Assembly (NCBI GenBank): GCA_905178155.1
Contig: CAJINV010000004.1
Coordinates: 5,000,619-5,064,618 of the forward strand
DNA length: 64,000 nucleotides
Source: Amoebophrya sp. A120
Taxonomy: Eukaryota > Protista > Dinoflagellata
Reading direction: 5' to 3'
Positions 5,414-63,300 of this stretch are shown here, one piece after another. Both the position numbers and the translations under genes were made by a program. The stretch's first letter is position 1. Every line of letters starts with the position of its first letter. The notes under the pieces are model-generated. The model was not told the origin of the DNA and searched no databases. It saw only the letters and a list, made by a program, of their open reading frames with translations.

Positions 5414-8400
5414 TCAACCCTGTCGTTCCTCCGTCTGCGTCCTCCCACAGCACGGCTTGCACACCCAACTTTCGGCGCATTTTGCCTTCACCGTATCCAC
5501 GTGCATGCTAAAATCCCCCTCGCTTTTCGGTGGGCCGAACATGAGCAACATCGACATGAACCAACCGACGGTGAACACTAACGAAAGGAACACCGTTAAG
5601 GAGATCATGGTGGCCATCTTGGTAAAGAAGGTCAGCGTGCAGGCGAACATCAGAAGTCCTGCAGCCGCGGTGGTGGAGGCACCGGCGAGAATGGTGCCGC
5701 CCATGTGGCGCAGGGAATACCTGGATTTTTGTTTGTGAAATTTTATTTCAGTGTTGACACTGTAGCTGTAAGCATTAATCACGAACTTCAGCGCCGCAAC
5801 GAACATCACCACAAGGACGAGGAAGTAGTAGATGTACATGAAAAAAGATCTGCATCTTCATTGAACCACGACAGCTCTAAAAGTACTACCTTGACTTCGC
5901 TAGCCTGCCAATCAGCCCTTCCTCGGTGGCTTCGCCCCAGATGTGCCCCATGTGCAGGGTGTAGTCGATGGAGAAACCAATCACAATGATCCCGCTGATC
6001 ACTTCCACGGCCCCCAACGACCACCCCAAAGCGTATTTGAACGTCCCGTATGCATTGCAAAAGTCTCGTACTAGTGTAAATTGCATCACAAATTTTGTCA
6101 AGAAGAAAAATGGAATTTGTAATGCTTATTTACCTAAAAAGGGATATTTGTCATGCATGATAGCAATTACTACGAGTACAATACTTTTGCACAGGATATC
6201 CCCATCACCACGCCGACAATCTGCACAATCGTCAACATGGCAAGCGAGGAAATGATCCAGTTCTGCGTCGCGAGTAGCAACACGCAGTAGGAAATCGGGA
6301 AACAGAGCGACAAACCCCGCATCAAGGTCTATGAAAGTACACAACTCCCCCTCCCCCTCATTTGTCATGCCAAACGCCTCATTTACGCCCTGGCTCTTGG
6401 CACTGTTTGCATGACAAGTTCTAGCAGCCCAAATAGCACAACAATCTTGCGGCCGAAATTTGTCATGCAAAACCGGTAATCTTGCTGATGCTTGTGCTGC
6501 TGTTCATGCAATACACGTGAGGGGGAGGGGGAATTGTGCACTTTCATAACGTCTCCAACAAGGCCACTTCCACCGCGTACCAGGGCCAGGACAAAGGGGT
6601 GGTCTTGTATGAACTGCAAAAGCATCGTACTCGTACTGCAATCATGCATTACAAATCTTTTTCCTAAGGTAAATCCGCATTACAAATTTGATCTCTCATG
6701 TTGCTGAGGGAATAAAAATTTGTAATGCATTTATACGAGTACGATACTTTTGCAATGCATATCTGGATCGGCGGGCCCATCTGGGAGATGGTGGGCAGCG
6801 TGTCCGCAATGGCCTCGTATTTGTCGTACAAGTCGCCTCTGGTCTTGTGCGCCTGCAGCATTTTCAAAGTCGACCGGTGCGACATGGAAATGTACTTGAT
6901 TTGATCGTTGATCACCCCGATGTGCTTTTTCCAGTGCTCGGGGATGTTGTCAGAGTTTGTTGAAGGGGAATGCGTTCCCGGTTTCTGGGTTAACCGAAAT
7001 TCCTTCAGAGCTGTTGCGAAGTCGGTTTTTGATGCGAAAATCTGCTTGTAGTTAGATGTCGAAATTTGCGTTGCGTTCCCTGTAGTTGTTCCAGGAGTTG
7101 TGATGGTGTAGTTCCCACTGGCTTGTAAATACGCCAAAAATTCGTTCATCGGACACAGATGCGTGTCCAAAATCGTCAACGGCTTCTGTCCGTTGATCAG
7201 AGCAGTCGTAGGCGGTTCGCACCCGTGGTGGGCGCAGGTTTTCTGCTGCATGTCTGTGCACGCTTGGACCAGCTCCGGAAATCCTTCGTAGTAGTCGAAC
7301 TGGGCCCGGTACTGTGGTGTCCCCCGGTTTTTGAAGGGGATCCACTTGTTGTAGTCCTCCCGGTCGATGTACTCGGAATTTTCGTCGAAACCGTAGGTGA
7401 TCGACACCGGGACATATTCTGTTGTGGGTTTGGAGAGAAACAACTGCGACTCCCGAGTTGAAAAGTCGTTGTACATGTGTCCGTCCGGAAACCATTTCTC
7501 CTCTTCGACCGGCGGCTCCAGTTGCAGCGCCTCGGTGATGCCGTAAATCGCCCAGCACGAGAGGCCGAAAGCGATCAGGAGCGGGATGGGGAAAATTCGG
7601 CAGGTGGAAGAGGATAGCAGAGACATGTTTGGGCTCGCGGCGCCAACACCCGTTGTGGGAGTGGTGGTTGGGGTCGACGACGTGGCGTCGATTTTCCTTG
7701 TAGAGGAGACACGAATTTCTGTAGATTTTGTCGTCGCGGCACCATGATCACCTGCGGCAGTAGGGCAACTATTATCGCCTTGTGCTCCTGCTTCTATCCC
7801 CGCCAAATCTTTCGTGTTTGACCGCGACGCCTGTCTCGATACGTTTTTACTGGACGTTGTGTCGACTGACTCCCGCAACATCTGCTTGATCCCATTTCGC
7901 CGGAAGGAGACTGATTTCGACTCCGTGTCAATCCGGACCTCGAGCAGAACCAACATCACCCAGTACCACTCCCAGTAAGACTCAATCTCTGTGCCGTCAT
8001 AGGAGTTTTGCGTTTCCTGCTCATCGGATAGTTGTAGTACATTCGCAAGTTGATGTTCTCCCTCCAAAATTCTCCCTGGCTCAACGTCAACACTTGACGT
8101 CGCAGCTGTTGTAGTTGCGCCGACGTCGACGACCACTGGCGGCGCGCCGTACGCAGGCGTGGTGTCGCGGGAGTCGTTGAGGGCCGCGTCTTTGCTGTGC
8201 TTCAAATCCACCACTTGCGTCGCGTCGCCGACGATAGGCAAAGCAGGTGCGCCAGCTTGTCCTGCTTTTCCTGTAGTCCCGCTACTTTTTCCCCCATCAT
8301 GATGAACAACCTGCGCCACCTTGCAGCAAGCGAGTTTGAAACAAAAACATCCGTTTCTCGCGCAGCACTTGCAAAATTTCGAGTCGACGAAAGCCGTGTC

Positions 8401-11245
8401 GGCGAGGTAAAGCACCGCGGGGAGATTCACCATGGCGAAAATGTAGTTGCTAATGATCAACAGAGACGCGTAGATCCCGAACCCACTAATCGGCATAATG
8501 GGCGAATATGAGAGTGCACAACTCCCCCTCCCCCTCGTTTGTCATGCAAAATCCCAAATCCAGTTGCTGCCTTGTAGCACTGGTTGCATGACAACTTCTG
8601 GAAGCCCAGACAGTATTACAAAAGGCGCATAAATTTGTCATGCATAGGCTCCATGTGTGCTGGTGTCTGTATTGCTGCTCATGCCATACAAATGAGGGGG
8701 AGGGGGAGTTGTGCACTGTCATACCGAAACCGCGGTCGCGATGAATGCCGCCGTTGTGGTGAAGGACGTGTTGAACACGGCAACGTAAGCTCTGTTCAAC
8801 GCCTTCAACAGCGCGAGTTTGTATTCCCGCTTCGTCAACGGCTCACTCACGTCGAACTTCGCCTGTTGGATTTGCACCTTCGCCGCTTCGTAGCAATCGG
8901 ACAAGACGAACACATCGTCCGCGCCGATTCCGCAGGCGAGAAAGAGGCCGGTGATGTGGAGCTGGGTGAAGTAGAAGGCCTGGCCAACGACGCGGTACCA
9001 GAACAGCGCGAAGGGCAGGGTGAGGGAGATTTGCGCGACCGCGACGGAGGCGAGAAACGCGGATCTGGTGTGGAGCATATGCATTGCAAAAGTGTCTGGG
9101 TCTGGAAACTTGTAATGCTGCGTTGGGAATAGTGAATGCTCTGTAATGCACAGGCAAGCATGAGAAATGTCTGCGCTTCTTTGTGTTGCGTTTTTGGCAT
9201 GACAAACTGCGTTTTTGCATGACAGGCAACAGGGTCTCTTCTTGGACACGCATCACAAACTTTTTGGTCATGCCAGACAAGCATGACAAATGCAAATCTC
9301 GCACTCTCCCAGATGACCCAGACATTTTTGCATTTGATAGAACAGAATTAAAAGCCAAACGGCAAAAATCGCACCCATGATGAAGTTCTGATCCTCGACC
9401 ACCGCCCGCTGGAACTCGACTTGGCGTATCGCCAGCTATGAACTGCAAAAGTATGTATCGCACTCGCATAAATGCATTACAAATTTCCTCAGCATGACAA
9501 ATAAAATCTGTAATGCGATGAATTTACCTTAACAAAAGGATTTGTAATGCATGATTGCAATAAGAGTGCGATACTTTTGCACAGGATACCAGCCCGTGGT
9601 ACGCCATCTTGATCCCGAGCGCGTCGTCTTTGAAAGCTTCGGAATCGGACAAATGCGACCCCTCAAACGGAGCCGCGACCTTGAGGCCAAACCGGCTCGC
9701 GATCCGCTCGTTATTACAGTGAAATATGCCCCCACCCCCAAAGTTGAAAAAATTTGTGATGCGAAGTTTCCAAATGAAAACTTTTTGCCATGCATGAAAA
9801 GAGTATGAATCTTTCTGATGCAGAGGCTAGGCGTGTATTGCATCGCTTACATGACAGGCGCCACCCTTGCTGGGGTCTTTTGCAATGCAAATTTTTGCTA
9901 TTCACGATTGGAAACCTGTGATGCTGATAGATGCAAGCGGGCAAGCGTTTCATTTGGAAAGGTTTGCAATACAAATGCTCCCAAGTTCGGGGGTGGGGGC
10001 ATTTTTCATTGTAATACTCGTCGACCCGCATCCAGAGGTCCCGGAACGTGTCGACGAATTGTTCGATGAATTTGTCTATGAACTGCAAAAGCAACGCACT
10101 AGTATAAATTGCATTACAAATTTGCTCAGCATGAGAAATAAAATTTGTAATGCGGATTTACCTTAGGAAAAAGATTTGTAATGCTTGACTCCAATTACTA
10201 CGAGTACGATACTTTTGCACAGGATATTGTCTTCCTCCGCCGTGTACCCCGGTGCCGGAGCACCCAAATGGATCAGCGACCGGGTTTTGGTGGAAAAGGG
10301 GCGTGGATTCGTGCTGGTCTGACTGTTCAGAAACTCTTTGTCCACAAAATACTGGTACAACGCCTGCTCCTGCCCGGTGGTCAAAGAGCTGTTCGTCGCT
10401 TTCGTGTAGAGCTCCTGTTTCTTCGAGGAAAAGGTTACGGCATCGAGCAGCGGACAGCTGTAGTCATTCAAGTTTCCGTAGAAGAAGTTCGCCAAGCTCG
10501 CGGCATTTAACACGCAGTCTGTAAAGGGTAAAAACCCGGGGACGTGCGAGGTTCCGTTCGTGGACTGTTTCAGCAGTCTCGTTGCGGCGTTCCCCCGCCA
10601 ACAGGTCTTCGCGTAGTCTTCGTCTTTCGTGACGTAGGATTCCATTTGACAGACGAACTGCACAAACTGCGGAGTGAAAATCTCGGAATCCGACTGCTTG
10701 AAGAACAAAAACGTGATCGAATTCCGGTAGCTGACTTGTGTGTAGGCCGCGGTTTGGTCGGTCAAGCCGAGATTGTTGTTGTCCGATTCCCGGACAAGGA
10801 TTTGTGCCTCTTTCAAACAGTCCGTCTCCCGGGCGATTTGACTGTCGATCGGGTACCAGGCCACAATGCCCGCGTCCTCCGTGATCAGACTGATTCCCGT
10901 GATGGAAACGTGCGCGACCAAGACGAAAACGAAAAAGCATACGCAGCCGAAAAACCCGCAACACTGCTTCCAGGGCCGTTCCACCGCCCCATTGGCGATG
11001 CGGTACCGGAGCCGGCGGGAAAAATAGGGGTCGGACTCGCCGAGGGTGAGCATCTCCTCCGCGAGCCCGAGGGTGGCACCGATGTTTGCAGTCGTGATCA
11101 TTGGCGGAGAACCTGGTGGAGGTAGGCTGCTGGCGTTGTTCTGCATTGGCTTTTCTGTTTCCGCCGAATCCGCGGCCGCGGTGTTGAAAGTGGTGGTCAT
11201 CACTTCGGGGTCGTTGGGACTCACTACCGAATCAGAAGTGGGCAT
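5414..11245 (-). CDS. Dispatched/Patched-family RND transporter with sterol-sensing domain, 10 exons, ~1,337 aa
   Basis: TM4 motif GIGADDVFV, TM10 motif GFSIDYTLH and GGTILAGASTT. Removing 8 introners (each plus 5 bp) and GT-AG intron 5721-5889 leaves 4014 nt in one frame. Joins include EEDKFIE, VDERIAS, LILFHTRS, TAVSPIMP, ETLMRG, VMGTFK and KSRYSL. Confidence 0.9.
6049..6198. mobile_element. Introner family A (150 bp)
   Basis: TATGCATTGCAAAAG...CTTTTGCACAGGATA; flanks TCCCG/TCCCC; removal restores frame. Confidence 0.85.
6330..6548. mobile_element. Introner family C (219 bp)
   Basis: TIR TATGAAAGTACACAACTCCCCCTCCCC; flanks AGGTC/ACGTC. Confidence 0.85.
6608..6761. mobile_element. Introner family A (154 bp), opposite orientation to 6049
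   Basis: TATGAACTGCAAAAG...CTTTTGCAATGCATA; flanks TCTTG/TCTGG. Confidence 0.85.
8507..8723. mobile_element. Introner family C (217 bp)
   Basis: TIR TATGAGAGTGCACAACTCCCCCTCCCC; flanks GCGAA/CCGAA. Confidence 0.85.
9078..9339. mobile_element. Introner family B (262 bp)
   Basis: TIR TAT-N4-TGCAAAARTGTCTGGGTC; flanks GAGCA/GAACA. Confidence 0.85.
9437..9588. mobile_element. Introner family A (152 bp)
   Basis: TATGAACTGCAAAAG...TTTTGCACAGGATA; perfect direct repeat CCAGC. Confidence 0.9.
9712..10016. mobile_element. Introner (305 bp)
   Basis: TIR TATTACARTGAAAWATGCCCCCACCCCC; perfect direct repeat CTCGT. Confidence 0.9.
10077..10226. mobile_element. Introner family A (150 bp)
   Basis: Perfect direct repeat TTGTC; removal gives AEEDKFIE. 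Confidence 0.9.
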
Positions 11246-13164
11246 CTTGGTTCATGGTAGCTTTTTTGACATAATGGGTTGGAAGATGAAAAACAAAAAG
11301 TTTCTTTAGATTTTCAATATAGAATTTGTAGTATTTAATTGCTTTTGCAGCAAAGAAATGAAAAACGGATTTTTTTCAAGACCTAGAATTTGCATCTCCG
11401 CCTCCGCCATGCGTGCAACTAGCTTGAGCTTGTGTCACAACAAAATGATTAGTAAAAGCACTAATCTTCTACAAGGCGGAAGGACAAGAACCATACCTAT
11501 GAGAAAAAAAACAGCAGCACAGCAGGGTATGCCACCAATCAAAAAACAGCTTTTTTATCAGCCAATCACCGAAATATTGACTTTCATTTTCGCCATCTTA
11601 TTCTTGTATCTTTCCCGCTATTCGCTCAACTCGCATAGCCATATCCGAGGGTGGAAAATTAGCCTGTGGTGTGCATTTGTGGAACGCCGCGCACAAAAAA
11701 ATCATGAAGGTGGTAGCCAGGAGACCACTTCTTGTTTTTTCACTTTCTCATGGCAAAAAATAAAGGTCCACTCATGATCAGCCGCGGTCACTCTTCTCGC
11801 TTCTACCATGCCCTCGAAAAAAAAGTTCATACTCTTGCCCTCCTCCTGAGGACGCTGAGGATGACACTCTTGCTGCTGTGTCGATGAATAAATGAAGTTC
11901 AGCTCGACGTCCAGCTGCACATCGTCATAAAATGGCGCATCTCGAAAGAACTAAACTTGAACACCTCTCCTTGCCGGGTGTGGTGGGAACGCGAGTGCTG
12001 TGGCGCAGAAGTGTTTTTTTTTTTTTCAGCTCGAGGATATCAAGACAAAGAAAAGCTAAAGTGTGATGGGTTTCCCGCGTCGTTATCATGGTGGTGTACA
12101 GTTTTTTTAGCTCAGGACGGATACGGAAAACATTATTGGCATTTGAACTAAGTGACAGGAAAAGAAGAGGCACAAGGGAAGATGGTGACACAACCCCATC
12201 AGAGATTGATGCGCATCTTCACCCCTTGATCTTCATATCCATGCAAAGGTTAGTTTGATTAAGGTGTAAAATTCTTCTCATACGACGCTTTTCATCAACG
12301 TATTTTTTTCGTGGACATTTTGTTTGATAGATTCCGAATATTCATCCTATAGTTGTAAGTTTCGAAAAAAATGAAAGAAAAGAACCTGAAGAACTATTGT
12401 GCGGCAAAAAAATGTACATGTCACCTTTTTGAAAAATCGAAGCAGGGCTCCTGCCAAGAAACGCGGGGGGATTTGAGGGGGTAGAGTGGGTAGTTGTCCC
12501 TCAACATCTTCGTGTCTGTTATTTTCAAATCAAAAAAAATTGCGAGCACAGTTGACCTACTTTTGAAAGAAATTCAAATGAGAGTAAATCAATATCGCTA
12601 TCGCTTGGAATAATTGTACAAAAATCAAATTTTTGTTTACAAGTGAAGCCGGCGAAAATCAAGTTCAAGACAAAAGCAATATCGTACACGAAAAAGCAAC
12701 TGCGTAGTACAGAAAACCTATTTATGCTGTTCGTTGTAGCAGTAGCACAACTAGAGGCTGTAGAGGGTATTGTTATTGCAATGTAAAATAATCCAAAAGA
12801 GATTCCGAGCAATGTTTTGTTGTTACTTTTGTTACCTGCTTTAAACTAGAAAACGAAAGAAACGAAAACCTGTAGAAATAAACAGTAAAATTCACGACGG
12901 TGCGTCGACGTGTCGTCAAGAACATGGTAGTTAGAGTAGAAATAAGCTCTGTTAAGGTTACTTTTAAGCCGGATGATTTCTATTTCTTCGCAAATAACAT
13001 GAAGCTGCAACGACAAAGTTCATTGAGCTGGATCGTGCACAGCTCAATTGCATATTACTTACATGCTCAGAAGTTGAAGTTGACTGTACTTTCATAAGCC
13101 CGAAGCGCCAAACGATCTTGCATTTCCTAATGTTAATGATCTCTCCTCCTTGCGGACCTTCTAT

Positions 13165-16100
13165 CTAATAATACAAGTCTTCGCTTGCCGAGCTGCTCTG
13201 TACGCTTCCGCTGGGATCGATGTCGTCCACGTCGTCCGTAGCACCATCGTCCGGCTGCCCGAAGGCCGCAAACGGGTTTGCGGACCGGTTCATATTTCCG
13301 CCTCCGCGTGAGGTTCGTGGATTGAGGACCCGGTTGTTCCGCAACATTGGACTTTCCGCCCGTGCCGGCGGGAGGTTCAACGCGCGGGTGGAAGACCGGC
13401 GGGTGGTCGATGCGCGTGTGTTGTTCTGGTTCGAGTACGAACGCGGGCCTGCGTTTATTGATCGGTCCTGCATTATATTGCTGACGAAATTGGTTGTTGT
13501 TTCCCGATCTACTTGCGATGACAGTGTAGGCTCAACATTGCGGCTTGATACTCCTCTTCCGGTTGTAGTGCTTCTGCGAGAAGCTGAGCCACCACCTCCC
13601 ATCATCATGCCTCCAAGCCCCAGCGCCGCCCCAGGACTGGAATTAATCACCGACCGTCCGGAGGCCGAGGCGCCACGCAATCTATCCCGCGCGATCTTTT
13701 GCTTCGTAATCCCATCCCAACTCGCGAACGTCGCTTTCGCGAGTAATTCCCGCCTGCAATTCCTGTAGTACCGCAACACGTTTGCTCTGTGCGCGATCAA
13801 GCTCCACCGGCGGAGAATGGGTCGCATGGACTTCGCGAAGTTCTGCTCCGCGAGCATGCGTTCTAAATTGTCCACGCACATCTCGTGCCGCTCGCTCAGC
13901 TGCTTCATCGGGATGGTGACAATGAACCACTGGAGCAAAACCCGGTTCATTAAGAGCTTCTGCTTCACGTCCCCGAGTTTCTCCGCGTGCATTCTTGCGA
14001 ACGACGCCTGCATTCGCCGCATCCGCCACGTCCGGAAGAGATGCACTTTGCGCAATTTGTGCTTCGAGGCCGAAAAATCCGTCAATGATTCGGTCAGCTG
14101 GAACCGCGATTCCGCGCAGACTAACTTCCACCGGTAAAGGATCTCGGATAACAGCGACATGTTGTTCAAATCGTTCCGGGCGTTATCCTGTGCAAAAGCA
14201 TCGTACTCGTAGTAATCCCATTCATGCATCACAAATTTCTTTCTCAAGTTAAATCCGCATTACAAATTTTATTTCTCATGGTGAGGAAATTTGTATTGCA
14301 ATTCATACTAGTACGATACTTTTGCAATGCATAGGCGTGAACCAAGGACAATTTCGCCGTTGTCGCCTTCTTCAAGTTCGCGTTCAACGCCAACCGGGTG
14401 AACGAACTGAACAACTTCGCCCGTCTCTGGTGTCGGTCGCTCAGTTTGAACATGTGCGCCAAGTACATGTTTCGATCCGCTTCCCTTTGCAGTTGCAAAC
14501 CGACATGGGCGGAGTGCTTGACGCAGTGTCGCCACGCGTGGAAGATCTGAATACACAACTTCGCGTCGTGCGCAGCGGAGAACGCGGCGCCCACCCGGGA
14601 CAAGGCTTTCCGGGTGCGAATCTCGCTGTACTGGAGCTTGTCTACCTTGTCGACGTGGATATGGATTGTAAAAATGTCTGGATCTGGAAGGTTGGGACTT
14701 GTAATGCTAGCTTTTCATACCTAGAAAATCTGTATTGCATATACGAACAAAAGTCGCAGCCTCTTTTGTCATGCAAAGTCGCAGTTTCTCATGCGGATTG
14801 CCTATGAGAAAGCGTTTTGGGAAGTTGTCATGCCGGACTGCATTCGGAAGTGTTTTCATCATGCACATTTTAGCATCACAAGTTTCCAGACCCAGACATA
14901 ATTTTTGCATTTCATAGTGGATCAACGTCTGCCAGGATTGCATCACGTACGACATTAAATGCTTCGTCGTATCCTGTGCAAAAGTATCGTATTCGTATAA
15001 ATGCAAGTCTTGCATTACAAATCTTGTTCTGAAGGCAAATCCGCATTACAAATTTTCACTCTCATGCTGAGGGCATTTGTCATGCATTTATACGAGTACG
15101 ATACTTTTGCAGTTCATACGTCGTCGCGTCCAACAAATACGCGAAATGCTTCTCGATCCGTTTCTGCTTCACAATCTCCGTGCGCCAGCCCTGGAAACTC
15201 AGCTTCTTGATGGACTTGATGTGGTGGGTCGCGATTAATTTATCCTTCTGGTCAAAATGTCGGTCCTCATTGCTCTTATGCGCGTTGTGGTACCGCATGC
15301 CGTCCCGCCACTGCTTGAAGTAGCCGTAAAGTTCCGCCGCCGCAAATTTCGCGTTTTTCTCGGTCAACGCCGCGATCGCCGCCATCGCCTTCTTTTTCTT
15401 CTGCTCCTTCACGTACCGCAGCCACACGTCGAAAATCGTGTGCATCGACCGGCCGGCGAGGTGCTGTAAGAACAGAACATCGACCCCGTTGCTGAATTTC
15501 TCCTTATCCGTGCTGTGCTTCTGCCGGTGCTGCTTCACCCGGACCTCATGGATCCCGTGCAGCGCGAGTTTGTGCCACGCGTGGACCACCTTCCGCTTAC
15601 CACGGTCGGTGTGGAGATCGAGTTTCCCAACGACCGACCTGGTTTGGACGTTTTTCAAGTGCCCTTTCAACTTGTCCGTGACGAAGCGGAATCTTTCGTG
15701 CTTCGTGGATTCCTTCCAGGCTTTGAAAAAGATCGTTTTTAATTGCGTGCTGTCCGTGATGTCGATCATGTTGTGGAGGGATTTGAGTAGCCTCTCCGCG
15801 TTGGTAATCGATTTGATCTCGATTTTTTCCTTCAGTGCTTCCGTCTTCGCGAGAGTTGCCTGGTAGATGATTTCCTTCCAGATTCTTAAAATCTGCAACT
15901 GCAAATTCTTATCGTTCTGCGCTAGCGCGAGTTGGAGTCGCCTGTAACTTGCCGATTTTTGCGCCTCCTGCTTCTTTTTCTCTACCGCTTCGTCCTCGCG
16001 TCGTTGCTTCTCCTGCGCTGTGAATCCCGCCCAAGTTTGAAACGTTACCCTTTGTTGCCAACTGTGCAGCTTGGTGGCGAAGTCCAGCGCGTGCTTCTTC

Positions 16101-19100
16101 GCGCGCTCTTGGGCGAGGTTCTGTTTTGATTTTTTTTTGGATTACAAATTGATTCAGCATATTACGAGATGAAATTTGAATTATTGCGTAATGCATAAAA
16201 AAAGCTACAACTATCAGTACCATTTTCACGACCACGGTCTCGATTTCCGCCATTTTCGCTCCGTTTTTCACGACATCCTGCCAGGCGATGATGGTTCGCA
16301 ACTTCAAGAACTCCGCGGCGTGTTCCACCTTGGTTTGCGCGAAGGAAAACGCGACGTCCTTCGTCTGCAACTTTGCCTCCCGGAGTAATCTTTCTTTCTT
16401 CTCTTCGACCGCCGTGTCGTGCCACAATTCGACGAACTTCTTCAGCAATTCCGACTCGTCCGCGACCCCGCCAAACTTCCCCCACAAGCGGATTGCGCCC
16501 AAAGTTGATTTCAACTCCAATAACCTCCCATTCATCGCCTGCATTTCCTGCTCCACCTTCGTCTGCTCCGCCCAGGCTTTGAACACCATGGTCTTCGTCG
16601 CTATCGAATGCAACAATGTCTGGGTCTGGAAGGACCCGAACTTGTGATGCGAGTTGTGGACCATACAAAGATCTGTGTTGCATGACTGGCATTAGGTGCT
16701 CACTTCTGGTCATGCTGAGTGGGTATTTCTCATGCAGAATAGGCATCACGGAGGGGCAGGAGAACCTGTGATGCTCGGCCCCGCATTCCAGACTTGAGGG
16801 AGCTAGAGCTTGGAAAACTTGCATGACAAATCTCGGAGTCTCCCAGACGCAGACAAGTTTGCAATGCATAGTCGCCCGCGCGTCCTTATTCGCGGCGGTG
16901 AAGACCGCTTGAGTCGCGTAGTTGTTCATGGACTGTTTGATTTTTTCCTTTTCCCGCGCCATTTGCTGGTCGAAAATGTACTTTTTCCACTCCCTCCACA
17001 TCATCTCCATCAGCATAGTGGCGGACTTGTGCCCGAAAGCAACTTTGAGTCTAGAGACCATCTGCTGTCTGGAGACATCATTCAACTGGTCCGCCAACGC
17101 GTCCCTTGCCTTATCCGTTTTGTTCTTCTTGTACAAGTCCGTCCAATGCCGCATAGCGTTCCGGAGAATAGACCCCGGGTCTTGCGCGAAGGCGATTTGA
17201 AGTCGGGTGAACCCAGATTCAGTTGCTACTTCTTTCAATTTACTCTCCATCGCGTCGGACTCGCGGTTGTTCTTGATCTGTTTTACGACTTGCTTCCACA
17301 GATCCATGGCATTTTGCTTCAAACCATGGAGAGTTTCACTGCACAGCGCGTCGAAGGTCTTAAACGCCCTTTTGTAATACCGCTGCGCCTCTTCGTGTTT
17401 CCGCTGGTATTTTTCATCGTGCGTCAACTTTCGCCACGCTTTCATGTGGTGCTCGAGGATGAAGTGTTTCACCGCTTTGATGATGATTTTTTCCTTCGCG
17501 GTTAACCTTGCGTTCGACTTTTCCTCCCAAAACCGGACTTCGATCATCTTCTGGTGCCCCAGCTCCTGTTTCATTTTCTCCATAGCCTGCTCGTGATCCT
17601 CGTCCCCCTTGCGAGTCTCGACGGAAAATTTCCAGTAGTGGAACGCAGAGGTCATCAACGCAGCCGATTCTTTCGCGTTCAATTCCATGGATTTCATCAC
17701 TTTCATCGACGTGTTTTTCTTGTCCACGAGAATTTTCTGCATGGATTTCGCGTTACTCGCATCCACGGAGAGAACGTGCCAGCCGGCAAAACAAGCTTGC
17801 TTCAACACGTCTGGGTCGTCCATCGCGATTAACCTTCTTGTTTTCGCAAATTTCCACCCTTTTTCCACCTGTTCCCGCTTCTTCTCCATTTCTTGGTGCA
17901 GAACCTTCTCCGCCTTCGCCTGTCTTGTGATGTGCGCCCATTCCCGGACGATGTCTGAAGTCATGAAACTCGTTTGCTGCCCGAATAGGTCGACGCCCAT
18001 GCGGGACATCACTTTTAAAGCGCATTGCCTCGCGAATTGCTCGGACCGGAAGGCTTTTTCCTGCAGGGTCATCGCCTTCCACTCGCCGAAAACAACTCCC
18101 GCCATTTTCAGCGTGTCGTTTTTGTCGACTAACGCGAAAACTGTTGATTTGTTCTGCATCATTTCCTTCCGCATCTCTTGTAACTTCCCTGACGCTTCAT
18201 TCTCCTCCTTCGCAACGTGGACCCGCAGGTGCCAGGCGCCGAACACTAGCTGACACAAATCTCGGTTTGTCCGGCTGTCGTGCGCGTGGTCGAGTAAGTC
18301 GGTGATGAAGAAGTGGCTGAAGTCTTCCATAGACTCTGTGATTTCCGTCTCAAACGCGGCCAGGTACTGCCCGACGGTGTCTTGGTCCTCCGCCAAGTCG
18401 ATGGGCGGGAGACGGGGGGAGAGCAAAGGGAGTTTTCTCTCCTCCGGTATTTCAATCGCGGACGGTAAATCCGTGACGGTTGCCGGGATTAGTTTATTCG
18501 TGTGTTTTGTTGGCGTGGACGGTGGATATGGCACGTTATTCAAGATCGTGGGCGGGACCACTCCACCGGCTGCTGAAGATGTTATTGCGCCACCAGCTTG
18601 GACCATTTGAGCTGTAGATCTCCCTGCAGGCTGGAACAATTGCGTCTGCGGTGTTGATCTACTAGCGTTGCTGTTGTACTTGTTCTGGATCACAGAACTG
18701 CTCGCCGCAGCCCCGGTCGCCGCACTGCTCGCCTGACTCGCAGTGGATGCGCCAGCAGCGGAGGCTTTGAAGGCGAACGGTGGATTTGAACTTAAGTAGC
18801 TCCTACCGCCCTGCACGTACTGTGGGGATCTTCTCGCTTCGGATTTTGCAGAACTCGCGGATCCAGACACCAAATACCCTTTCGATTTCACTTCGGCATG
18901 CGGCTCAGGGCCTCTATTGTCCACTTCCAGTACCACTCGGCTTTCCGGCTGCGGAGAGACTGTATAGAAGGAGAAATGGTGATCGCCGACAGTGATCATC
19001 TACCAAAGAAAAATCGCAGCACACCCTCGCGGAACGGGTTTGCTTTTTAACGGACCGAAAAAATGGCGCAGCTTTTCGCAGAGTGTGGCAGTGTTCACTG

Positions 19101-22100
19101 CGCACATTATGCGAGCAGTGCTGGAGATGGGAAAGGCCGACAATGGCCGGACGCTTCGGGGGCCCCAGGTGCTTAGTTTTCATGGTTGCTGGGCGCATGA
19201 AACCACTCTTCCCGTCTGGCCACGAGCGCCCACGCGTTTTGGTCGTCGAGCGCTCTTACCTCGGCCGGGGCGCGGCGCTTGAAGAGGGTCGGGGCCATAG
19301 CGTAGAGCCGGTTCGTTTGGACTGCCATCCCCCGCCTGGTTCGGGCCCGGCTCTGTGCCTCGACCTTGCCCGCCTGCCGCGAATGCGTCAAGGCATCGAC
19401 GGGCCGGGGGCCCGGTTCACGCACTTAAATCCGATGACGGCTGGCTTTTGCGTGCCGCCAAGGGCAGCAAATACACGGAGCCGGCGGAGAAGCGGCTCCG
19501 ATACGTAAGTACTAGCAACAAGCAACGGAGGCCATGCCGTCGGTTCTTAATTTGCACCGACGGCACGACGCAGTTTGGTGAAGAGAAAGAACGCGGCGCG
19601 ACTTTCGCGCCCCGGCTTCAACATGAAGACGGCGAGGCACCTTGCTGCACGGCCGCGGCAGCTCCTGCGGCGAGTCTCTCATAGTCGGCGCAGGCACGGA
19701 CCGCGATAAACACTCGCTATGCCATCACGCAGGGCCCCGGCCTAGCGCCTGCCAAGAAAGAACAAAAGCAGCGCCGCCAAATATATATAAACTTCGCCCG
19801 GCGACGAAGCGCATGCCCCGCCCGGCGCAGCCGCGGAGCCGGCACACCTGAGAAGGGCGCAGAACTCCCAAAGCAGCCACAGCGCTGCACCGCCTCGAGC
19901 CTGGCTGCCAGTTCCTGCACCGGCCTCGGGCCCCGAACTGTGAGCGGCTGCCCCACTTGTAATTTGCAGGCCCAGCCTGGAGCCAGGGCTTCCGGGCCTT
20001 CAAGGAACTGGCGCAGAGCATACTATAGCAAGGCGTTGCTTCTTCATCTTCTTCGACAACGTGCTGCATTTCTCGCAAAGAAACGCGTTGTCGGAAATGA
20101 GTGTCGGAAGACGACAGAAAAACACTGATCTAAATGAGAGTCGAGTCACTGATCATGAAACAAAAAGACCCTAGTTGAATGGTGATCATCAAATCAAAAA
20201 AGTCGCTTGATGATCACCATTGCCACGAGCTAACAAAGGTGATCATCAAATCAAAAAAGTCGTTTGATGATCACCATTCAACTAGGGTCTTTTTGTTTCA
20301 TGATCAGTGATTCGCCTCTCATTTAGATCAATGCTTTTCTGTAGTCTTCCGGCACTCATTTCCGACAGCGCGTTTCTTTGCGAGAAATGCAGCACGTTGT
20401 CGAAGAAGATGAAGAAGCAGCGCCTTGCTATAGTATGCTCTGCGCCAGTTGTTCCTTGAAGGCCCGGAAGCCCTGGCTCCAGGCTGGGCCTGCAAATTAC
20501 AAGTGGGGCAGCCGCTCACAGTTCGGGGCCCGAGGCCGGTGCAGGAACTGGCAGCCAGGCTCGAGGCGGTGCAGCGCTGTGGCTGCTTTGGGAGTTCTGC
20601 GCCCTTCTCAGGTGAGCCGGCTCCGCGGCTGCGCCGGGCGGGGCATGCGCTTCGTCGCCGGGCGAAATTTATATGCGGCGGCGCTGCTTTTGTTCTTTCT
20701 TGGCAGGCGCTAGGCCGGGGCCCTGCGTGATGGCATAGCGAGTGTTTATTGCGGTCCCTGCCTACGCCGACTATGAGAGAGACGCCGCAGCTGCCGCGGC
20801 CGCGCAGCAAGGTGCTTCATCCTCTTCATGTTAAAGCGGGGGCGCGAAAGTCGCGCCGCGTTCTTTCTCTTCACCAAACTGCGTCGTGCCATCGGTGCAA
20901 ATTCAGCACCGACGGCATGGCCTCCGTTGCTTATTGCAAGTAAGTAGCGGCGCCGTTTCTCCGCCGGCGCCCGTGTATTTTTTTGCTGCCCGAAATGTAG
21001 TGGGCGATGGCGGCACGCAAAAGGCAGCCACCACTGGATTTGAATGAGCCGGGCCCCCGGCCCGTCGATGCCTCGACGCCTTCGCGGCAGGGAGGCGGGC
21101 AAGGCCGGGGCACGAAGCTGGGCGCGCACCACGCGGGGGATGACAGTCCAAACGCGCCTGCTATACGCTATGGGCCCGACCCTCGTCAAGCGTCGCGCTC
21201 CGGCCGAGATCAGAGCGCTCGACGAACCAAACGCGTGGGCGCTCGTGTCCATGTAGGTGGAGTGGTTTCATGCGTCCAACAACAATGAAAACAAAGCGCC
21301 TGTGGTCACAAAAGCGCCCGTCCATTGTCGGCCTTTCTCAGCTTCAGCACTGCTCGCATAATGTGCGCAATAAACACTGCCACACCCTGGGAAAAGCTGT
21401 GCCATTTCTGCGGTCCGTAAAAAAAAACACCCTTTCCACGAGGGTACGCTGCGATTTTTCTTCGGTCCATGATCATGTCGGATGATCACCGTTTCTCCTT
21501 CTATAGACTGGTCGAGTTGCTGGCTCCTGGTAAATCAGCTCGCGCGGCACAATTTTCTCCGGGAAAACCGTGTTCGCGGAATGTACCCCGGCGGGGACGC
21601 GAGAACTTGGGCTGGGGGACCTGACCAAAACGTTCGGGGGTACGTGGCCGGAAATCAGTTTCGAAGACAAATCAGTTATTCTGGTGAACTGCTTCTTGGT
21701 GGCGATGCCCGCAAACTTTTTCGAGGCGTCCCCGCGCAGCAGTTTGTGCATGTTGATCGAAGTCCGCCGCAAGTGGCAACTCGCGAGATCCACGCCCGTT
21801 TCCGGGTGGACAACCAGCAAGTCCGTGTTTTTCCGCGGACTGAAAATCGATCTTCGCGCAACCGCCACCCGTCTGGACTCCGGCTCGTAGTCGGTTCCGG
21901 AGACCGAAGTGTCCGCCCCGCCGACCAGATCCGTCGGCACGCCGAGTCTCTCCGCCGCTTTCGCAGATGTATCGACGTATTCGCCTCCGTAGCAGCCAAT
22001 CCCGTTGGTGCGGACTGCGTAACCGAGGACGTTGGTCGCTAACGTGTCGAGAAACACCGCCATGGATTTCCCGACGTTCTGCAACCGGCGTAGAGACTTC

Positions 22101-54300: not shown

Positions 54301-57300
54301 AACCCGCCAAACGCAGCGGTGTTTGGTTCGGGAGAGACTTGCCCAATTTCCGGACTAGTAGTTACGACACTTATCGCAGTACCTGGCTGCAAAACGGGCG
54401 TGCTGGTTCCCCGCACGATCGGCAATTCGATATGCAGGCCTGGAAGCGGCAAATTCAGATGATCCGTCGCCTTTTTAGCCGAGAAACTGAACAAGTTGCT
54501 GGCGGTGGCTTCGTCCGACACAAACTTCGTGCCGAAGCGGTCAATCCAATTCTGGCTCTTCTCCAGCTCCCGATACCACTGCGTCACGACCAACTCGCTC
54601 TGGTCCCACGTCATGCCAGCATCGGTGAAAGTTGTGAAGCCCCGCGTGCGAAGGTCGTACAGCTCTTCGACGACTCGGAGGATTTCTTCGTCTTTCCACA
54701 GAGTTCTTGTCGTTGTCGCACTTCCGCTTGGAGCTGCTCCTGTAGTTGATGGAGGAATTGATGAGTCGTGGTGGGTGAACCGAAGAAAGCTCGGGGACGC
54801 GGCGCCGCCGGGCGAACGGTAGCCACTCGGCGTCTCCAGCTGCACTCGCCCGAGCCAATCGCGCAGGTGATTCCGGCCGGTGGGCGCGAGCTCGCGCAAC
54901 CCCCCGTACTTGTCCCATTCCTTGTGGTACTTTTCGGATTTTGGCACGCGCAAAACCTCCACCTGGTCCACGACCTTGCTCAGCGGGAGCCGACGTCTGA
55001 CGGCCGGCGCGCCGGAAGAACCATCCCTGGGCGGGTCTTTCTGTCTCCTGCCGAGGAACTCGCTCACGAGCGGCGCGAAGTCGGTTTCCGTGGCGCGCGT
55101 CTGCAACACGTACGCCTTGCGGCTGGTGATATCCACGAGCCGCTGCGTTTCGACCAATTGATCGATGTTGCTATTAATGTTGTCCTATCCCGTGCAAAAT
55201 TAGCATCGCACTCGCAGTAATGGCAATCGCAGTCATGCATTACAAATCTCCATCCCAAGGCAAAACAGCATGACAAAATCCATTTGTCATCATGCTGAGC
55301 TAATTTGTATTGCAACTACTACTAGTACGATACTTTTGCAGTTCATATGTCCAAGTACGCCCGCGCCACCTGCTGGCGCCGCTTCAGCGCTTCCTGCCCG
55401 GGGGACGGCGCCTGCTGCTGCTCCGCGGTGTCAATAAGCGCAGAAGTACTAGACCCCCGTTCTTTCGGTGGTGCGGAAATGGCGATCAGGAAATCGCGGG
55501 TCTGCACCTCCTTTTGAATCGCGAAGCTGGCGCGCTCCAAACTCAGTTTCACGTCCATTTTGCGGTCAAAGTGCTTCAGGGTGCCGCTATCGGTTTGGAT
55601 TCGCCACCAAGCCTGGCCCATGTAGGCAGGACCCGCGAAGACGGAGTCGAGGGAAACCGCGGCTTCGAAGTAGATCATAGGACCATCGTAAGCACCGTTA
55701 ATCTGTTTTTCCAAAGTAGTATCCATGTGACGGGTGACAGTGAACGCCTTGTCGTTGCGCAAAGCGTCCATCGACGCCATGCCCATCTGCGTCAAATAGA
55801 ACGGGTTCTTAATCGCGCGCAGGCCCAAGTACTTGCTCTCCACGTGCGCGCGCAGCTGTACTTCCACAGGGAGCTGCTGGTTGCTCTCGTCTCCTGTCGT
55901 GGAAGATACGCCGCCGCCACCGGGGAGCTTAGCCTTTTCGCCTGCGTCTTTTTCGATACGTTTTCGCATGTTTTCCCAAAAATCTTTCTCTGCGTAAATG
56001 TCACTTTCGAGCAGGGGTAACAATTCAGGCACCGGATTCAAATCGTCCCAGTCTGCGGAACCAGGAAACCGGTGCACCAACTTCAGCAGCGCGCCGCCCC
56101 GCAACTTGGCGAACTTTGCACCGGTATCCTCTTCCGCCGGGGGTATCTCCGTGCCCGCGAAGTCCCAAGTCACGTCAGAAAGCCAGGCTTCGTACTTCTT
56201 CAGTGTTTCCTTCTGCGTTTCCCGCTCCACATGTTGTTTTTGACTGTTTAGGATTTTGATTTTCTCTTGCGCTGCTCCTATTGCCTTTTTGTTTTCCTGC
56301 AGTTCGTCAACGGATGGCATCGTGGTTCGGGAAATAATTTTTTTCACCTGCATCAACCGGTCGAGGTCACCTTGCTGTTCCCGGATTTCTGTGTCCAGTT
56401 CCTTATTTCTCCTCCCTTTGTCCGCCACGCTTTTCTCGATCTCGCTGCGACTGCGGTCCAGAAACAACGCCCACCGCTCCGCGATCGCCAACAGCGTGTT
56501 TTCCTCCCGGATGCGGTCTAAAGGGTCCTGCTGGTGCAGGTCGGTGGCGTACTTGCCCATAAAGTACGCGCCACCAACATATCCACAGTAAATTTCCCGC
56601 ACACGCACAAATGCGGTCTCTGCATGACAAAACTTGGCTTCGATCCTAGTTTAGCATGACAAGTTTTGCGCTCCAAATTGGTAGAATTTGTGATGCATCT
56701 TGTACATGTACGGGAAATTTGTATTGCATACAACAGCCGCGCCAACGCCGACGAGGGCTGCGGGCACCGCGAGTACCGCGCCCGTGAAAAACGTGACCCC
56801 CATGAAAAGGAAGGAGCTCGCAGCATACCCCAGCGCGCCGCCGGCCGCGCCACCAGCCACCCCTTTGCCGACTTTCTGTGCGTGGAACGCATTCCACTTG
56901 GCGGAGAACGCCTCGGGGTCAAACGCGTCGGCGAGCTTGCTCCGGAAGCTCTGGAACTCGAACAAAAAGCGGGAATACAGCAGGTCCTGCGTTTTGATCA
57001 CAACAAGCTCCCCTTCTTCGAACTGTTGCAGCCGCTTGGCCTCCTCTTTCTCGGAATCTAGTTTGTACTTTCGCAACCGGCTCAGGTCGTTGTCTTTTTC
57101 CGAGCCGAATCCTGCAGATAGTGAATATTGCACCGCGTGGTCGCGTCTCCCCGCGTCAAGCACGCTGGCGGCCAATTCTCGGTGATGAACCGCAGCAGAA
57201 CTAGCCGGCGTTGGGCTATTAGGCGTACTAGGACCTTCATCTCGTCCCGGTTGGACATCTCTTGCGGCACCGCCGGTACTAGGTTCTAACAGCTTCAGAA

Positions 57301-60300: not shown

Positions 60301-63300
60301 AACCGAAACCACTCTTTCGTGTGCTGTGCTGGGGTATTCGAGGTCTTAGCGTCGCTCTTCGTTGGTGGCGTTGGTTCGACTTGGTAGAGCACGCTTTGAA
60401 ACTGCGGGTCTGCTCTTTCATCCGTAATATCTGGATCGTCTTCTCCGTCCTCTTTTCGTTGCCTGGGATGAATTGTGCTCGTCTCAACATGTCTCTTTGT
60501 TGATCGAATCGCCTTGACAGTGCTTCTGCGCCAGATTCCCTCGAGGGAGGTCACGGCTTTCTCTGCTCCCCCGTCGCCCAAGGAACTGGCCCAAAGAATC
60601 TCGGCCTGTTTGCGCTCCTCCTTCTCCGCAGCCTTCGCTGCTTGCTGCTCTGGCTGTTCCTCCTCCGGACGTCCGGCTGCTGGCATTTCAACGTCCTCCG
60701 GTTTAGCAGGCAACAACCTTTCGCGGAGCACATCGTTCACCCCCTCTGCGTACCTCGCGAGCTTGACACGGAGTCGGGGCAACACCGCCCCAGATTCTTC
60801 CAAATACAAGCGGCGAGACATAGCCCGTAAGCCGTTCTCTTCACGCACTATCGCATCATACTTCGCTTTTCCCGGTGTCAGCCGGTGGACCACGGCGCTA
60901 GGGTCATAAAACACCTCTATCGGCTTTTCTCGGCTCTCCTGCGACTCTTTCTCTTCATCATCAGCAGCAGTACCGGCGCCGGCTTGTTCTTCACCCTCCT
61001 TGTCGTGGCGCCCCGCCTTGTTGGAGTTCGCACTGAGTCGCTTCCCCCGGGGCCCTGCGTCGACGTTCGCTTCGTACTTTATCCAGTGCAAAAGTATCGC
61101 ACTCATAGTAATTGCAGTCATGCATGACAAATCTGGTTCGTGAGCTCATTCAGCATTGCAAATTCCATTTTCCCTTCTGGAAAAATTTGTGATGCTATTT
61201 CTACTATTAATACCATACTTTTACACTGCATATACTTCGCACCGTAGCGATTTCCGGTGGTTTTCTGGTGGTACCACTCGGATTTCAGGGCGTCGAACAT
61301 GAAATCAGCTGGATCGCCAATGGTGATCTCGCTCTCGTAGCACGCGCGTTTGGAAGAAGATGCAGAGGAAGAGGACTTCTTTTTGCTGGTAGTTGCACTG
61401 CCATCCGCTCCTGCTGCTCCCGAAGTAGACTGTGTGTTGTGAGAGATTTTCAACGCGAACGCCTCGAACAGGTTTTTGTTTTTCTCCGCATCGCGCACGG
61501 CAAGAACTGGGCTGCTGGTCATGATATCCACTTTTTTCCCGTAAACCAAGCTCATCAACACCGCCATACCGGCAACAATTTCCGTTTTTCCCTCGCCTGT
61601 CGCTACTTGTAACAGCGTGCCTCTCGTGAAGACGTCGCTCGCGACATTGGTCTCGCCAGAAGTTGCTGCTGGCGGGAAATAGAGCTTCATTCTGTCGTTG
61701 TCATCTTGTTGATTTTGTTGAGGTTGACCTTGAGCAGGTTTTATTGGGAGATCTTTTTCAGGTGTACGTCTCTCTTGCTGAAGCTGCTGCAACATTTCGT
61801 TTTCGAAAGCCTTCCGGTCGGCAAGGGGCGTGCCGTCGTGCAGCACGAACTGTTCGGCCGTTCCCAAAAAGTTCCTGCGCATCGCAGCCCAGTGCGACCG
61901 CAGGACCTCGACAATCGCCAGTCGCTGCACAAAATGCAGTTCGATCTGCCGCTGCGCCTTAATTCCGTAGAAGAAGACTTGCAGTGCCAGGGCGGAAAGC
62001 TTCTCGTAGACGCGCAGAACCATCCCAATACCCTTTTGCAAGACCGCCTGGACGCGGAGAAATCTCGCCTTTTCCCGCAACTGTTGGTACATTTGTTCTG
62101 CTTTTTCCCTAGTACCCGCAAGAAGGGATGCATTTCTGGTGTCCTTCGCTTTCTCCGCGTACTTTTCCAACACCCACCCGGCTACGTGGTTTTTAAACCT
62201 CGTCTCCTTGGCTGCAGTGGTCGGCGCAAGATTGGCGCTATTTCCACCAAAACCGATTGCGGAAAAAGCCATCCACGCGGGGAGCACCTCTCGCTCTTGC
62301 AAATCGAGGTGGTAAGTCAAGCTCCCACGTGGTCCGGAATGAGAAGAACTGGTCGTCGGCAAAAACTTTTCTGACAGCAGGAAATCTAGGTTGGCCATGT
62401 GGTCTGCCAGCTGTTCGCGCAGCCTGGGCGCCACCTGAGTTTTCATGTGGCTGCTCCAGTCGAGCAACTCCGCGCTCTATGGAAGTGTCAGAATCGAAAT
62501 TGACAAAATCGAAAAATTTGTGATGCACAAAATCGATGTCAGTTGGAGCCTCAGTTTCCAAGTGGCGCATGACAAATTTAGAGGGTACCCAAATCCAGTC
62601 TGTCATGCTGTTTGGGCAAAGAAGACTCCGCCTGTAGTGCTACTCTGGCAGCACATTGTATACAACCCCTAAACAGGCTTACAATCGGCCTCATTTGCCT
62701 GCTCCCCAATACAGGCCTCCAGTGCCCTGCATTTTATGCGTCACAAATTTTTCGATTTTGTCGATTTCGATCCTGACACATCCATACACTCGTCCAATGG
62801 GAAATCGGTTTCCAGATCCCGAGACGAGAAAGATCCACCCGGGTGTCATCTACTTGTACTTCTTCGACGAGCTGCCCATGCTCGCCTTCTTCACGGGCCT
62901 GTTCTTCCTCGCCTTCGCTATCCACCTCCATCTCGTTCATTGGTGTGTCCTCTTCGTAGTTTCCCCTCCGGCTTTCGCGAGGCGCAGGCACTTGATGATC
63001 CTGCGAAGAACCTCCGGAGTTTGTAACACTTCGTCCACCCTGCTGCCAGGGGTATCTCTCCACGGTGGGTGTGAACGTGTGCAGGCTGTTCAAGAGTTTC
63101 GCTACTTCCGTCTCCGTCCAGGAATCCGTGATTTCGTTGTGCAAGAAAAACCGTGCCACGATGTAGGGCCAGTTGTACACCGGCTGCCCGACGAGACGGA
63201 GCCCCGCGGGGGACCGGGCGATTTCCTTCGTGACAAAGTCTCGGAACCCGGCCCCGACAGACCCTTTCGCCAGGTCGTGCAGGATCTGCAGCACGCACTC

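What the first reader, a model, noticed from the sequence alone, without database searches (positions are those of the whole stretch)
6049..15118. Same introner family works in both orientations: strand-symmetric removal (structure-guided RNA splicing or DNA-level excision)
Seen: family A copies 6049, 9437 and 10077 (and 61080) read ..AATTTGTAATGC..TTTACC.. on plus, while 6608, 14184 and 14970 are the reverse complement. All host genes are on the minus strand, and both orientations occur in the Dispatched gene. Established: spliceosomal 5'SS/branch/3'SS signals are directional. Inference: the signal is the symmetric hairpin or termini, as in euglenid non-conventional introns or endonuclease/ligase splicing. 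Alternatively removal is at the DNA level, like ciliate IESs, which leave one pointer repeat. The giant element's TATAG end matches the Paramecium TAYAG IES consensus, possibly by chance.
Basis: partly seen in the sequence, partly recalled or inferred. Interest (0 to 1): 0.78.

Follow-up and report, generated by a model that had tools for sequence, protein, structure and literature searches.

The report
Reversible hairpin introns of a parasite
In a marine dinoflagellate parasite, copies of one small mobile element sit inside genes facing either way and are cut out exactly in both orientations, most likely from the RNA and guided by their paired ends; this intron class is already described, but how it is spliced is still unknown.

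Summary
Real, and largely a known system. The window is Amoebophrya sp. A120, and the elements are its introners (Farhat 2021, PMC7789003): TAT...ATA inverted ends with a 5-bp target duplication. The window holds 21, all in minus-strand reading frames. In other loci it is 30 against 11.

RNA-like contigs (4 runs, 2 samples, 1 study) remove element plus 5 nt at 8 of 8 sites in the Patched/Dispatched-like gene, together with a GT-AG intron. A DNA-like run keeps the elements, so ciliate-type DNA excision is unlikely, and the TAYAG likeness is chance.

The ends are symmetric but the cut is not. Five mismatched duplications allow only one common register, N-TAT...ATA-NNNN, and the bases at the cuts are at background. 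The most likely mechanism is RNA splicing measured from the paired ends, by a relaxed spliceosome (0.55) or a euglenid-like non-spliceosomal route (0.33). My searches found no paper stating orientation independence. The scan noted related hairpin introns in other genomes.

The parts
6049..6198 (.). Family A introner; the gene reads its TATCC end first (orientation R); 5-bp duplication with 1 mismatch; inferred intron 6045-6199 on the minus strand
   Evidence: 155 nt skipped in 4 of 4 RNA-like runs
6330..6548 (.). Family B introner; duplication with 1 mismatch; allows only 0-1 nt of the upstream copy inside the intron
   Evidence: (224 nt skipped)
6608..6761 (.). Family A introner in the opposite orientation (F), in the same gene as 6049, 9437 and 10077
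   Evidence: (159 nt skipped)
8507..8723 (.). Family B introner; duplication mismatch requires at least 1 nt of the upstream copy inside the intron
   Evidence: (222 nt skipped)
9078..9339 (.). Family C introner, opposite in orientation to 14660
   Evidence: 267 nt skipped
9437..9588 (.). Family A introner, orientation R, perfect duplication
   Evidence: 157 nt skipped
9712..10016 (.). Introner of another family, perfect duplication
   Evidence: 310 nt skipped
10077..10226 (.). Family A introner, orientation R, perfect duplication
   Evidence: (155 nt skipped)
14184..14333 (.). Family A introner, orientation F, in the neighbouring gene
   Evidence: contig length fits removal of element+5
14660..14916 (.). 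Family C introner
   Evidence: contig length
14970..15118 (.). Family A introner, orientation F
   Evidence: contig length
16602..16870 (.). Family C-like introner, opposite in orientation to 57726
   Evidence: contig length
18963..21505 (.). 2543-nt fold-back element with the same TAT...ATA ends and a perfect 5-bp duplication; 2548 nt absent from the X1 contig
55186..55347 (.).
61080..61232 (.).
5721..5889 (-). Canonical GT-AG intron, 169 nt, removed in the same contigs as the introners
5414..11245 (-). Host gene, Patched/Dispatched-like sterol-sensing membrane protein, 1337 aa after removal of 8 introners and 1 canonical intron

Best explanation
These are small inverted-repeat mobile elements (Amoebophrya introners) that sit in genes in either orientation and are removed exactly, with one copy of their 5-bp duplication, most likely from the RNA by a relaxed spliceosome that would find the cut sites from the paired ends. 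Steps. (1) Insertion as a DNA element, making a 5-bp duplication, in either orientation: anatomy shown, transposase unknown. (2) The transcript pairs the two ends into a helix: predicted. (3) The cuts fall 1 nt before the 5' TAT and 4 nt after the 3' ATA: the only register common to five informative junctions, uniformity inferred. This puts U at +2 and A at +3, as in the GTA starts of this organism's canonical introns, while +1 and the last two bases are free. (4) Exon joining restores the pre-insertion sequence: shown. (5) The catalyst is the U2/U6 spliceosome working without U1 and without G+1/AG checks: inferred. Orientation does not matter because both ends carry the same motif.
For: Exact removal of element+5 nt at 8 of 8 sites in 4 of 4 RNA-like runs, in contigs that also drop a GT-AG intron. 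Allowed cut windows [0,4], [-1,1], [0,3], [1,5] and [0,2] meet only at 1; the public protein agrees with 1 or 2 (probably built from RNA, so not independent). The spliced protein is gap-free against a homologue at 5 of 5 testable junctions. Mirror-image end profiles in 88 elements. Hairpins at z -4.2 to -9.5 in both orientations. Both RNA-supported canonical introns start GTA. Farhat Table S4 lists nine predominant A120 classes, all N-T at the 5' end, and nine A25 classes, all TT, with A25 repeats starting TTA: the same U+2/A+3 register in two strains (my inference). 83 of 89 spliceosomal proteins were found and U1 snRNA was not detected. Precedent: inverted-repeat introns of Fritillaria need the U2 spliceosome.
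Against: No preference for G at +1 (34 of 88, background 0.31, p 0.13) or for AG at the end (7 of 88, background 0.078); a spliceosome would be expected to keep some. The U-tract and any branch point near the 3' end would be buried in the predicted helix (pairing probability 0.89-1.0 at positions 8-14 in family A). The terminal TAT/ATA pairs are weak in orientation R (about 0.5), so they may be read as sequence. A common register arises by chance in 6 of 32 patterns, and the register is not shown to follow the transcript when family A flips (6049 allows 1 or 4). No lariat data exist here, and contigs cannot show intermediates. The runs are RNA by inference and come from one study.
Confidence: 0.55

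Rival explanations
1. Removal is from the RNA but not by the spliceosome: a structure-reading machinery like that proposed for euglenid non-conventional introns, or an endonuclease plus ligase, cuts at fixed distances from the terminal helix and releases a circle or linear RNA.
For: Bases at both cuts are free. The geometry of 1 free nt before and 4 after the helix resembles the Euglena code N3-CDG...CH'G-N5-6, whose introns leave as circles without lariats. A 2.5-kb palindrome is removed as cleanly as a 150-nt element. Weak hint that pairing in the transcript is selected: the C variant at repeat position 16 lies where it makes U.G in the RNA in 18 of 19 carriers (Fisher p 0.018-0.052, position chosen after looking). 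This hint favours structure-guided removal under either catalyst.
Against: U+2/A+3 matches the canonical 5' splice-site register in two strains. Farhat reports the same repeat organisation in 15% of canonical A120 introns, and 4 of 88 elements here are GT-AG in this register. The U.G bias is absent at position 21 (11 of 29 vs 3 of 9) and in the other families (20 G.U vs 25 A.C).
Confidence: 0.33
2. The ends are read as sequence, not structure: each terminal repeat carries a 5' signal (TAT-S) and, read backwards, a 3' signal (U-tract...ATA), so a modified spliceosome sees ordinary directional signals in both orientations and the hairpin is a by-product of transposase recognition.
For: TAT and the A-tract at positions 11-14 are shared by all families, while family A often mispairs at positions 4-7. 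Inverted ends are expected of DNA transposons anyway. The sense strand folds better than the antisense in only 56 of 87.
Against: The predicted helix is strong in both orientations. The position-16 U.G hint. The two RNA-supported canonical introns have A-rich 3' ends without a pyrimidine tract, so the tract is not an obvious shared signal.
Confidence: 0.09
3. The elements are excised from DNA at some life stage, like ciliate IESs, leaving one pointer repeat.
For: Removal leaves one copy of a direct repeat and works in both orientations. DNA of every life stage was not examined.
Against: The contigs lacking the elements also lack GT-AG introns and differ in depth by gene, as RNA does. In DNA-like run X5 all 8 listed pieces run from unique flank into elements without mismatch at flank depth; 3 junctions pass the 31-nt bridging rule. 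Paramecium IESs leave one TA; here both TA go and a variable 5-mer stays. The junction takes bases from both duplication copies in a fixed 4+1 pattern. No germline/soma split is known in this group (recalled).
Confidence: 0.03

Closest known systems
Introner elements (IEs) of Amoebophrya sp. A120 and A25 (Farhat et al. 2021, PMC7789003; sections 10, 11, 12, 16, Table S4 and supplement legends read; figures not seen)
   Same: Same organism; inverted repeats starting TAT with an A-stretch about 10 nt in; 5-bp direct repeats (Fig. S19 legend); non-canonical borders; RNA-supported; predicted hairpin.
   Different: The text read does not state that a family works in both orientations, and it calls splice sites 'variable' relative to the hairpin. 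Here a single 1/4 register fits. The Fig. S23 legend (repeats 1-5 nt from splice sites) may already show part of this. The 2.5-kb element exceeds that paper's 1000-nt intron window.
Euglenid non-conventional introns (PMC12501133, passages; PMC11282704, main text read)
   Same: Inverted-repeat ends that pair, direct repeats at junctions, no GT-AG, free bases between helix and cuts with a longer 3' tail, MITE-like origin, mechanism unknown.
   Different: Euglena motif is CDG/CH'G at +4 and -8, with a purine after the 3' cut; here TAT/ATA at +2 and -7, with no purine rule. Circular release is shown there and untested here.
Fritillaria borealis non-canonical transposon-derived introns (bioRxiv 10.1101/2025.08.15.670264, introduction; PMC11282704)
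   Same: [quoted passage not shown]
   Different: Mostly AG-AC/AG-AT borders, U1 conserved, U2 spliceosome shown to be needed. Here borders are N-T...N-N, U1 snRNA was not detected and the catalyst is untested.
Canonical introners that co-opt splice sites from the target duplication (Gozashti 2022, PMC9860276, passages)
   Same: TSD plus TIR, insertion reversed exactly by splicing; that paper's method allows opposite-orientation copies.
   Different: Those need a G/GT or AG in the duplication. Here the duplication shows no such bias.
Paramecium IESs (PMC3464196, passages)
   Same: Transposon-derived inserts in coding regions, removed precisely, leaving one repeat.
   Different: DNA-level, TA-bounded, one TA left, mostly unique sequence, needs nuclear dimorphism. 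None of the tested features is met here.
Hypoxylon symmetrical stwintrons (PMC8469720, passages)
   Same: Repeated introns with long terminal inverted repeats.
   Different: Canonical U2 signals, no target duplication, and a genuine intron on one strand only despite the symmetry.

Membership tests
Amoebophrya A120 introner elements | Host is Amoebrya-group strain A120 (Amoebophrya sp. A120) | tested here: met
   Exon piece 100% identical to a protein named Amoebophrya sp. A120; the whole spliced protein matches it, 1337 of 1337 aa
Amoebophrya A120 introner elements | 8-20 nt inverted repeats starting TAT, ending in an A-stretch | tested here: met
Amoebophrya A120 introner elements | 3-5 nt direct repeats over the exon/intron borders | tested here: met
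   5-bp duplication perfect in 14 and with one mismatch in 7 of 21 (at most one mismatch was a search condition)
Amoebophrya A120 introner elements | Repeated sequence, absent from transcripts | tested here: met
   64 loci with an exact 29-nt match; skipped in RNA-like contigs
U2-type spliceosomal introns | GT/GC...AG borders | tested here: not met
   GT-AG in 4 of 88 in the inferred register; G+1 and AG at background
U2-type spliceosomal introns | Lariat with branch adenosine; dependence on snRNPs | not testable with these tools
   Only assembled contigs cover the locus; raw-read run X9 laid 2 reads
Euglenid non-conventional introns | N3-CDG...CH'G-N5-6|R signature | tested here: not met
   Ends are N-TAT...ATA-N4
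Euglenid non-conventional introns | Paired ends close to both cuts | tested here: met
   Predicted folds; prediction only
Euglenid non-conventional introns | Release as full-length circles | not testable with these tools
   No reads of excised introns
Paramecium-type IES | TA at both ends, one TA left after excision | tested here: not met
   Both terminal TA are removed and a variable 5-mer remains
Paramecium-type IES | Excised form present in DNA | tested here: inconclusive
   Listed X5 pieces all retain the elements; contigs drop rare variants, 1002 joints were not shown, life stage unknown
Paramecium-type IES | TAYAGYNR end consensus | tested here: not met
   Giant reads TATAGAAG; A follows TAT in only 2 of 88 elements

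The most novel reading that the evidence does not exclude
Amoebophrya removes tens of thousands of transposon insertions from its mRNAs with a ruler: a machinery that ignores splice-site bases, recognises any TAT...ATA-closed helix in either orientation (150 nt to 2.5 kb) and cuts 1 nt before and 4 nt after it without a lariat. That would be a second, convergent origin of euglenid-like non-spliceosomal mRNA splicing.
Probability: 0.3. Interest if true: 0.85.

Novelty: already known. Interest (0 to 1): 0.45.

Why it matters
How Amoebophrya splices its majority class of non-canonical introns has been open since 2021. This window adds three constraints that I did not find stated in the papers searched. 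One family is removed exactly in both orientations, even within one gene. The cut appears to sit at a fixed 1/4 offset from the element ends. The bases at the cuts are free. Together they explain why these elements can invade coding sequence at will, needing no particular target or orientation. They also give fixed coordinates for a direct test (lariat versus circle, register by orientation) with existing RNA data.

Tried and rejected
No whole genome is held for the window, and the records behind the loci could not be searched, so all counts rest on the window and 64 short loci. Scans of viral and prokaryote collections with a family A motif found nothing. No run is on record as RNA among the holders; X1-X4 are taken as RNA because they skip GT-AG introns. 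Splicing efficiency by orientation could not be measured from contigs. Selection for canonical G+1 or AG in the duplication: not found. A general G.U over A.C excess (49 vs 30) comes from family A alone; other families show none. Strand-biased mutation as its cause: A>G 21 vs T>C 15, C>T 7 vs G>A 10, no clear bias. No Rfam family in the window. The giant element has only 108-168 aa ORFs inside it; they were not searched. Pfam matched 1 of 7 exon pieces. TAYAG likeness rejected. Huff 2016 is not held; Roy 2023 and Henriet 2019 were not read, so a statement on orientation there would be missed.
Full report
What is there. A scan for TAT...ATA ends with a 5-bp flanking duplication (at most one mismatch) and at least 13 of 20 paired terminal bases finds 21 elements in the 64-kb window, against 0-2 in each of 10 shuffles. 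Fourteen duplications are perfect and 7 have one mismatch. Removing each element plus 5 nt opens minus-strand frames of 2.4 to 17.7 kb through all 21 junctions; 15 of the 21 removed lengths are not multiples of three. The gene at 5414-11245 has a Patched SSD domain (1 of 7 pieces matched). One piece is identical to a protein named Amoebophrya sp. A120, and the spliced product equals that protein over 1337 of 1337 residues. It is gap-free against a homologue at 5 of 5 junctions covered by the alignment; 3 of 8 were not covered.

Orientation. With 30 nt trimmed from each end, family A interiors fall into two senses: 6049, 9437, 10077 (R: the gene reads the TATCC end first) and 6608, 14184, 14970, 55186, 61080 (F). 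An exact 29-nt motif from one end of family A found 64 loci in one public assembly; none matches the window's host sequence. They hold 105 distinct elements. A codon score trained on the window gave a confident host strand for 67, and 38 were dropped. Among the 67, 41 are family A: 30 R and 11 F. The motif fixes one end, so the ratio may be biased; that both orientations occur is not in doubt. No RNA was laid on those loci.

Removal. Runs X1-X4 (RNA by guess; 2 samples, 1 study) each show joints that skip exactly element+5 nt at 8 of 8 sites between 5600 and 10400, three R and one F copy of family A among them. The same contigs skip a 169-nt GT-AG intron. One further joint (9120-9197, X2 only) lies inside an element and probably comes from another copy. 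Skipping of GT-AG introns and gene-wise depth mark these runs as RNA. Run X5 behaves like DNA: even depth of about 41-59 over unique sequence including the intergenic stretch, and depth about a thousand-fold higher over elements. All 8 listed pieces run from flank into element without a mismatch. Only 3 junctions pass the tool's 31-nt bridging rule, and 1002 of 1017 joints were not listed, so rare excised alleles are not excluded.

Where the cuts fall. A mismatch between the two duplication copies shows which copy's base is kept. Let k be the number of bases of the upstream copy inside the intron. The RNA joints allow 0-4 (6049), -1 to 1 (6330), 0-3 (6608), 1-5 (8507) and 0-2 (9078). Only k=1 fits all five: intron = N-TAT...ATA-NNNN. 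By my count 6 of 32 possible patterns fit some single cut and 1 of 32 fits this one, so uniformity is suggested, not proven. All hosts are on one strand and the R copy 6049 allows 1 or 4, so I cannot show that the register stays with the transcript when the element flips. In this register the bases at +1 and -4 to -1 match coding background in 88 elements: G+1 in 34, AG end in 7, both in 4. Positions +2 to +4 are TAT and mirror the 3' end; TAT/ATA itself was a search condition, but the A-tract at repeat positions 11-14 was not.

Structure. One R and two F copies fold into end-to-end hairpins (z -4.6, -9.5, -4.2). In family A, repeat positions 8-14 pair with probability 0.89-1.0, positions 4-7 poorly, and TAT/ATA at about 0.5 (R) or 0.85 (F). 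At position 16 a C variant lies at the intron's 3' end, giving U.G in the transcript, in 18 of 19 carriers. Fisher p is 0.052 within motif-selected copies and 0.018 against all non-carriers. The position was picked after looking, position 21 shows no such bias (11 of 29 vs 3 of 9), and other families show none (20 vs 25). It is a hint only.

Mechanism. Shown: insertion anatomy, both orientations, exact removal, free border bases. Inferred: RNA-level removal measured from the element ends. Because both ends carry the same motif, a directional machine meets the same 5' and 3' ends either way, so two orientations do not by themselves exclude the spliceosome. For a relaxed spliceosome: U+2/A+3 is the register of the GTA starts of both RNA-supported canonical introns. 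Farhat's Table S4 gives N-T starts for all nine predominant A120 classes, and TT starts with TTA repeats for A25; aligner tie-breaking may shape that table. The spliceosome is nearly complete but U1 snRNA was not detected, and Fritillaria is a precedent. For a non-spliceosomal route: no trace of G+1 or AG, a helix that would hide 3' signals, and a geometry close to the Euglena code, whose introns leave as circles. I put these at 0.55 and 0.33, a sequence-only reading of the ends at 0.09, and DNA excision at 0.03. Paramecium IESs leave one TA and have TAYAGYNR ends. Here both TA go, the giant reads TATAGAAG, and A follows TAT in 2 of 88 elements.

What is known. Farhat et al. 2021 describe these elements in this organism: repeats starting TAT, 5-bp direct repeats, hairpins, mechanism open (sections 10, 11, 12 and 16 read; supplement part 3 and legends; figures not seen). 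Those sections do not mention element orientation. Three of 4 main-text hits and 2 of 3 supplement hits for 'orientation' were seen, and they concern gene order. Searches listed no paper on orientation-independent splicing in Amoebophrya. Gozashti 2022 allows opposite-orientation copies in its method (passages); Gozashti 2025 and a 2024 dinoflagellate review were seen as passages. Huff 2016 was not held; Roy 2023 and Henriet 2019 were not read. The Fig. S23 legend places A120 repeats 1-5 nt from the splice sites, which may already contain the offset. Earlier scan notes report similar hairpin introns in other genomes and none for this genome or sequence.

Verdict. A real feature of an already described class, with useful and apparently unstated constraints on an open mechanism. 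Interest 0.45.

Noticed in passing
window 18963-21505: 2.5-kb nearly perfect fold-back element with introner ends, removed whole in the X1 contig. Diverged copies appear in RNA-like and DNA-like runs. Only short ORFs inside. Longer than the 1000-nt limit of the published intron survey.
   Followed up: partly
loci L001-L064 and window 6049-15118: Neighbouring introners cluster: 35 of 44 gaps in the loci are 40-103 nt (loci are only 1.2 kb, which favours short gaps), and many elements are about 150 nt. This may reflect insertion into nucleosome linkers, as recalled for algal introners, or local hopping.
   Followed up: partly
window 5721-5889 and about 16121-16220: The two RNA-supported canonical introns start GTA and have A-rich 3' ends without a pyrimidine tract. 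Three of five further GT-AG candidates guessed from reading frames start GTAC (one of the five guesses is wrong against RNA).
   Followed up: partly
whole window: All 21 introners lie inside coding sequence of minus-strand genes; none was found in intergenic DNA or in the two plus-strand coding segments at 39400-44151.
   Followed up: no
window 44877-63999: One open frame of at least 17.6 kb (about 5900 codons) on the minus strand after removing 7 introners; protein not identified.
   Followed up: no
family A repeats, e.g. window 14985-15103: An inner TAT...ATA pair sits about 15 nt inside the ends of family A, and the position-16 variant removes the inner ATA at the 3' end; it could be a decoy splice register.
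   Followed up: no
window 38582-38881 and 44275-44574: 300-nt direct repeat, 98% identical, lying between minus-strand and plus-strand genes (D1).
   Followed up: no
window 12029-22000 and beyond: One 9980-nt X1 contig spans coding segments 13168-16138 and 15939-24799 joined by a 100-nt GT-AG intron, a large protein with no Pfam match in the three pieces tested.
   Followed up: no
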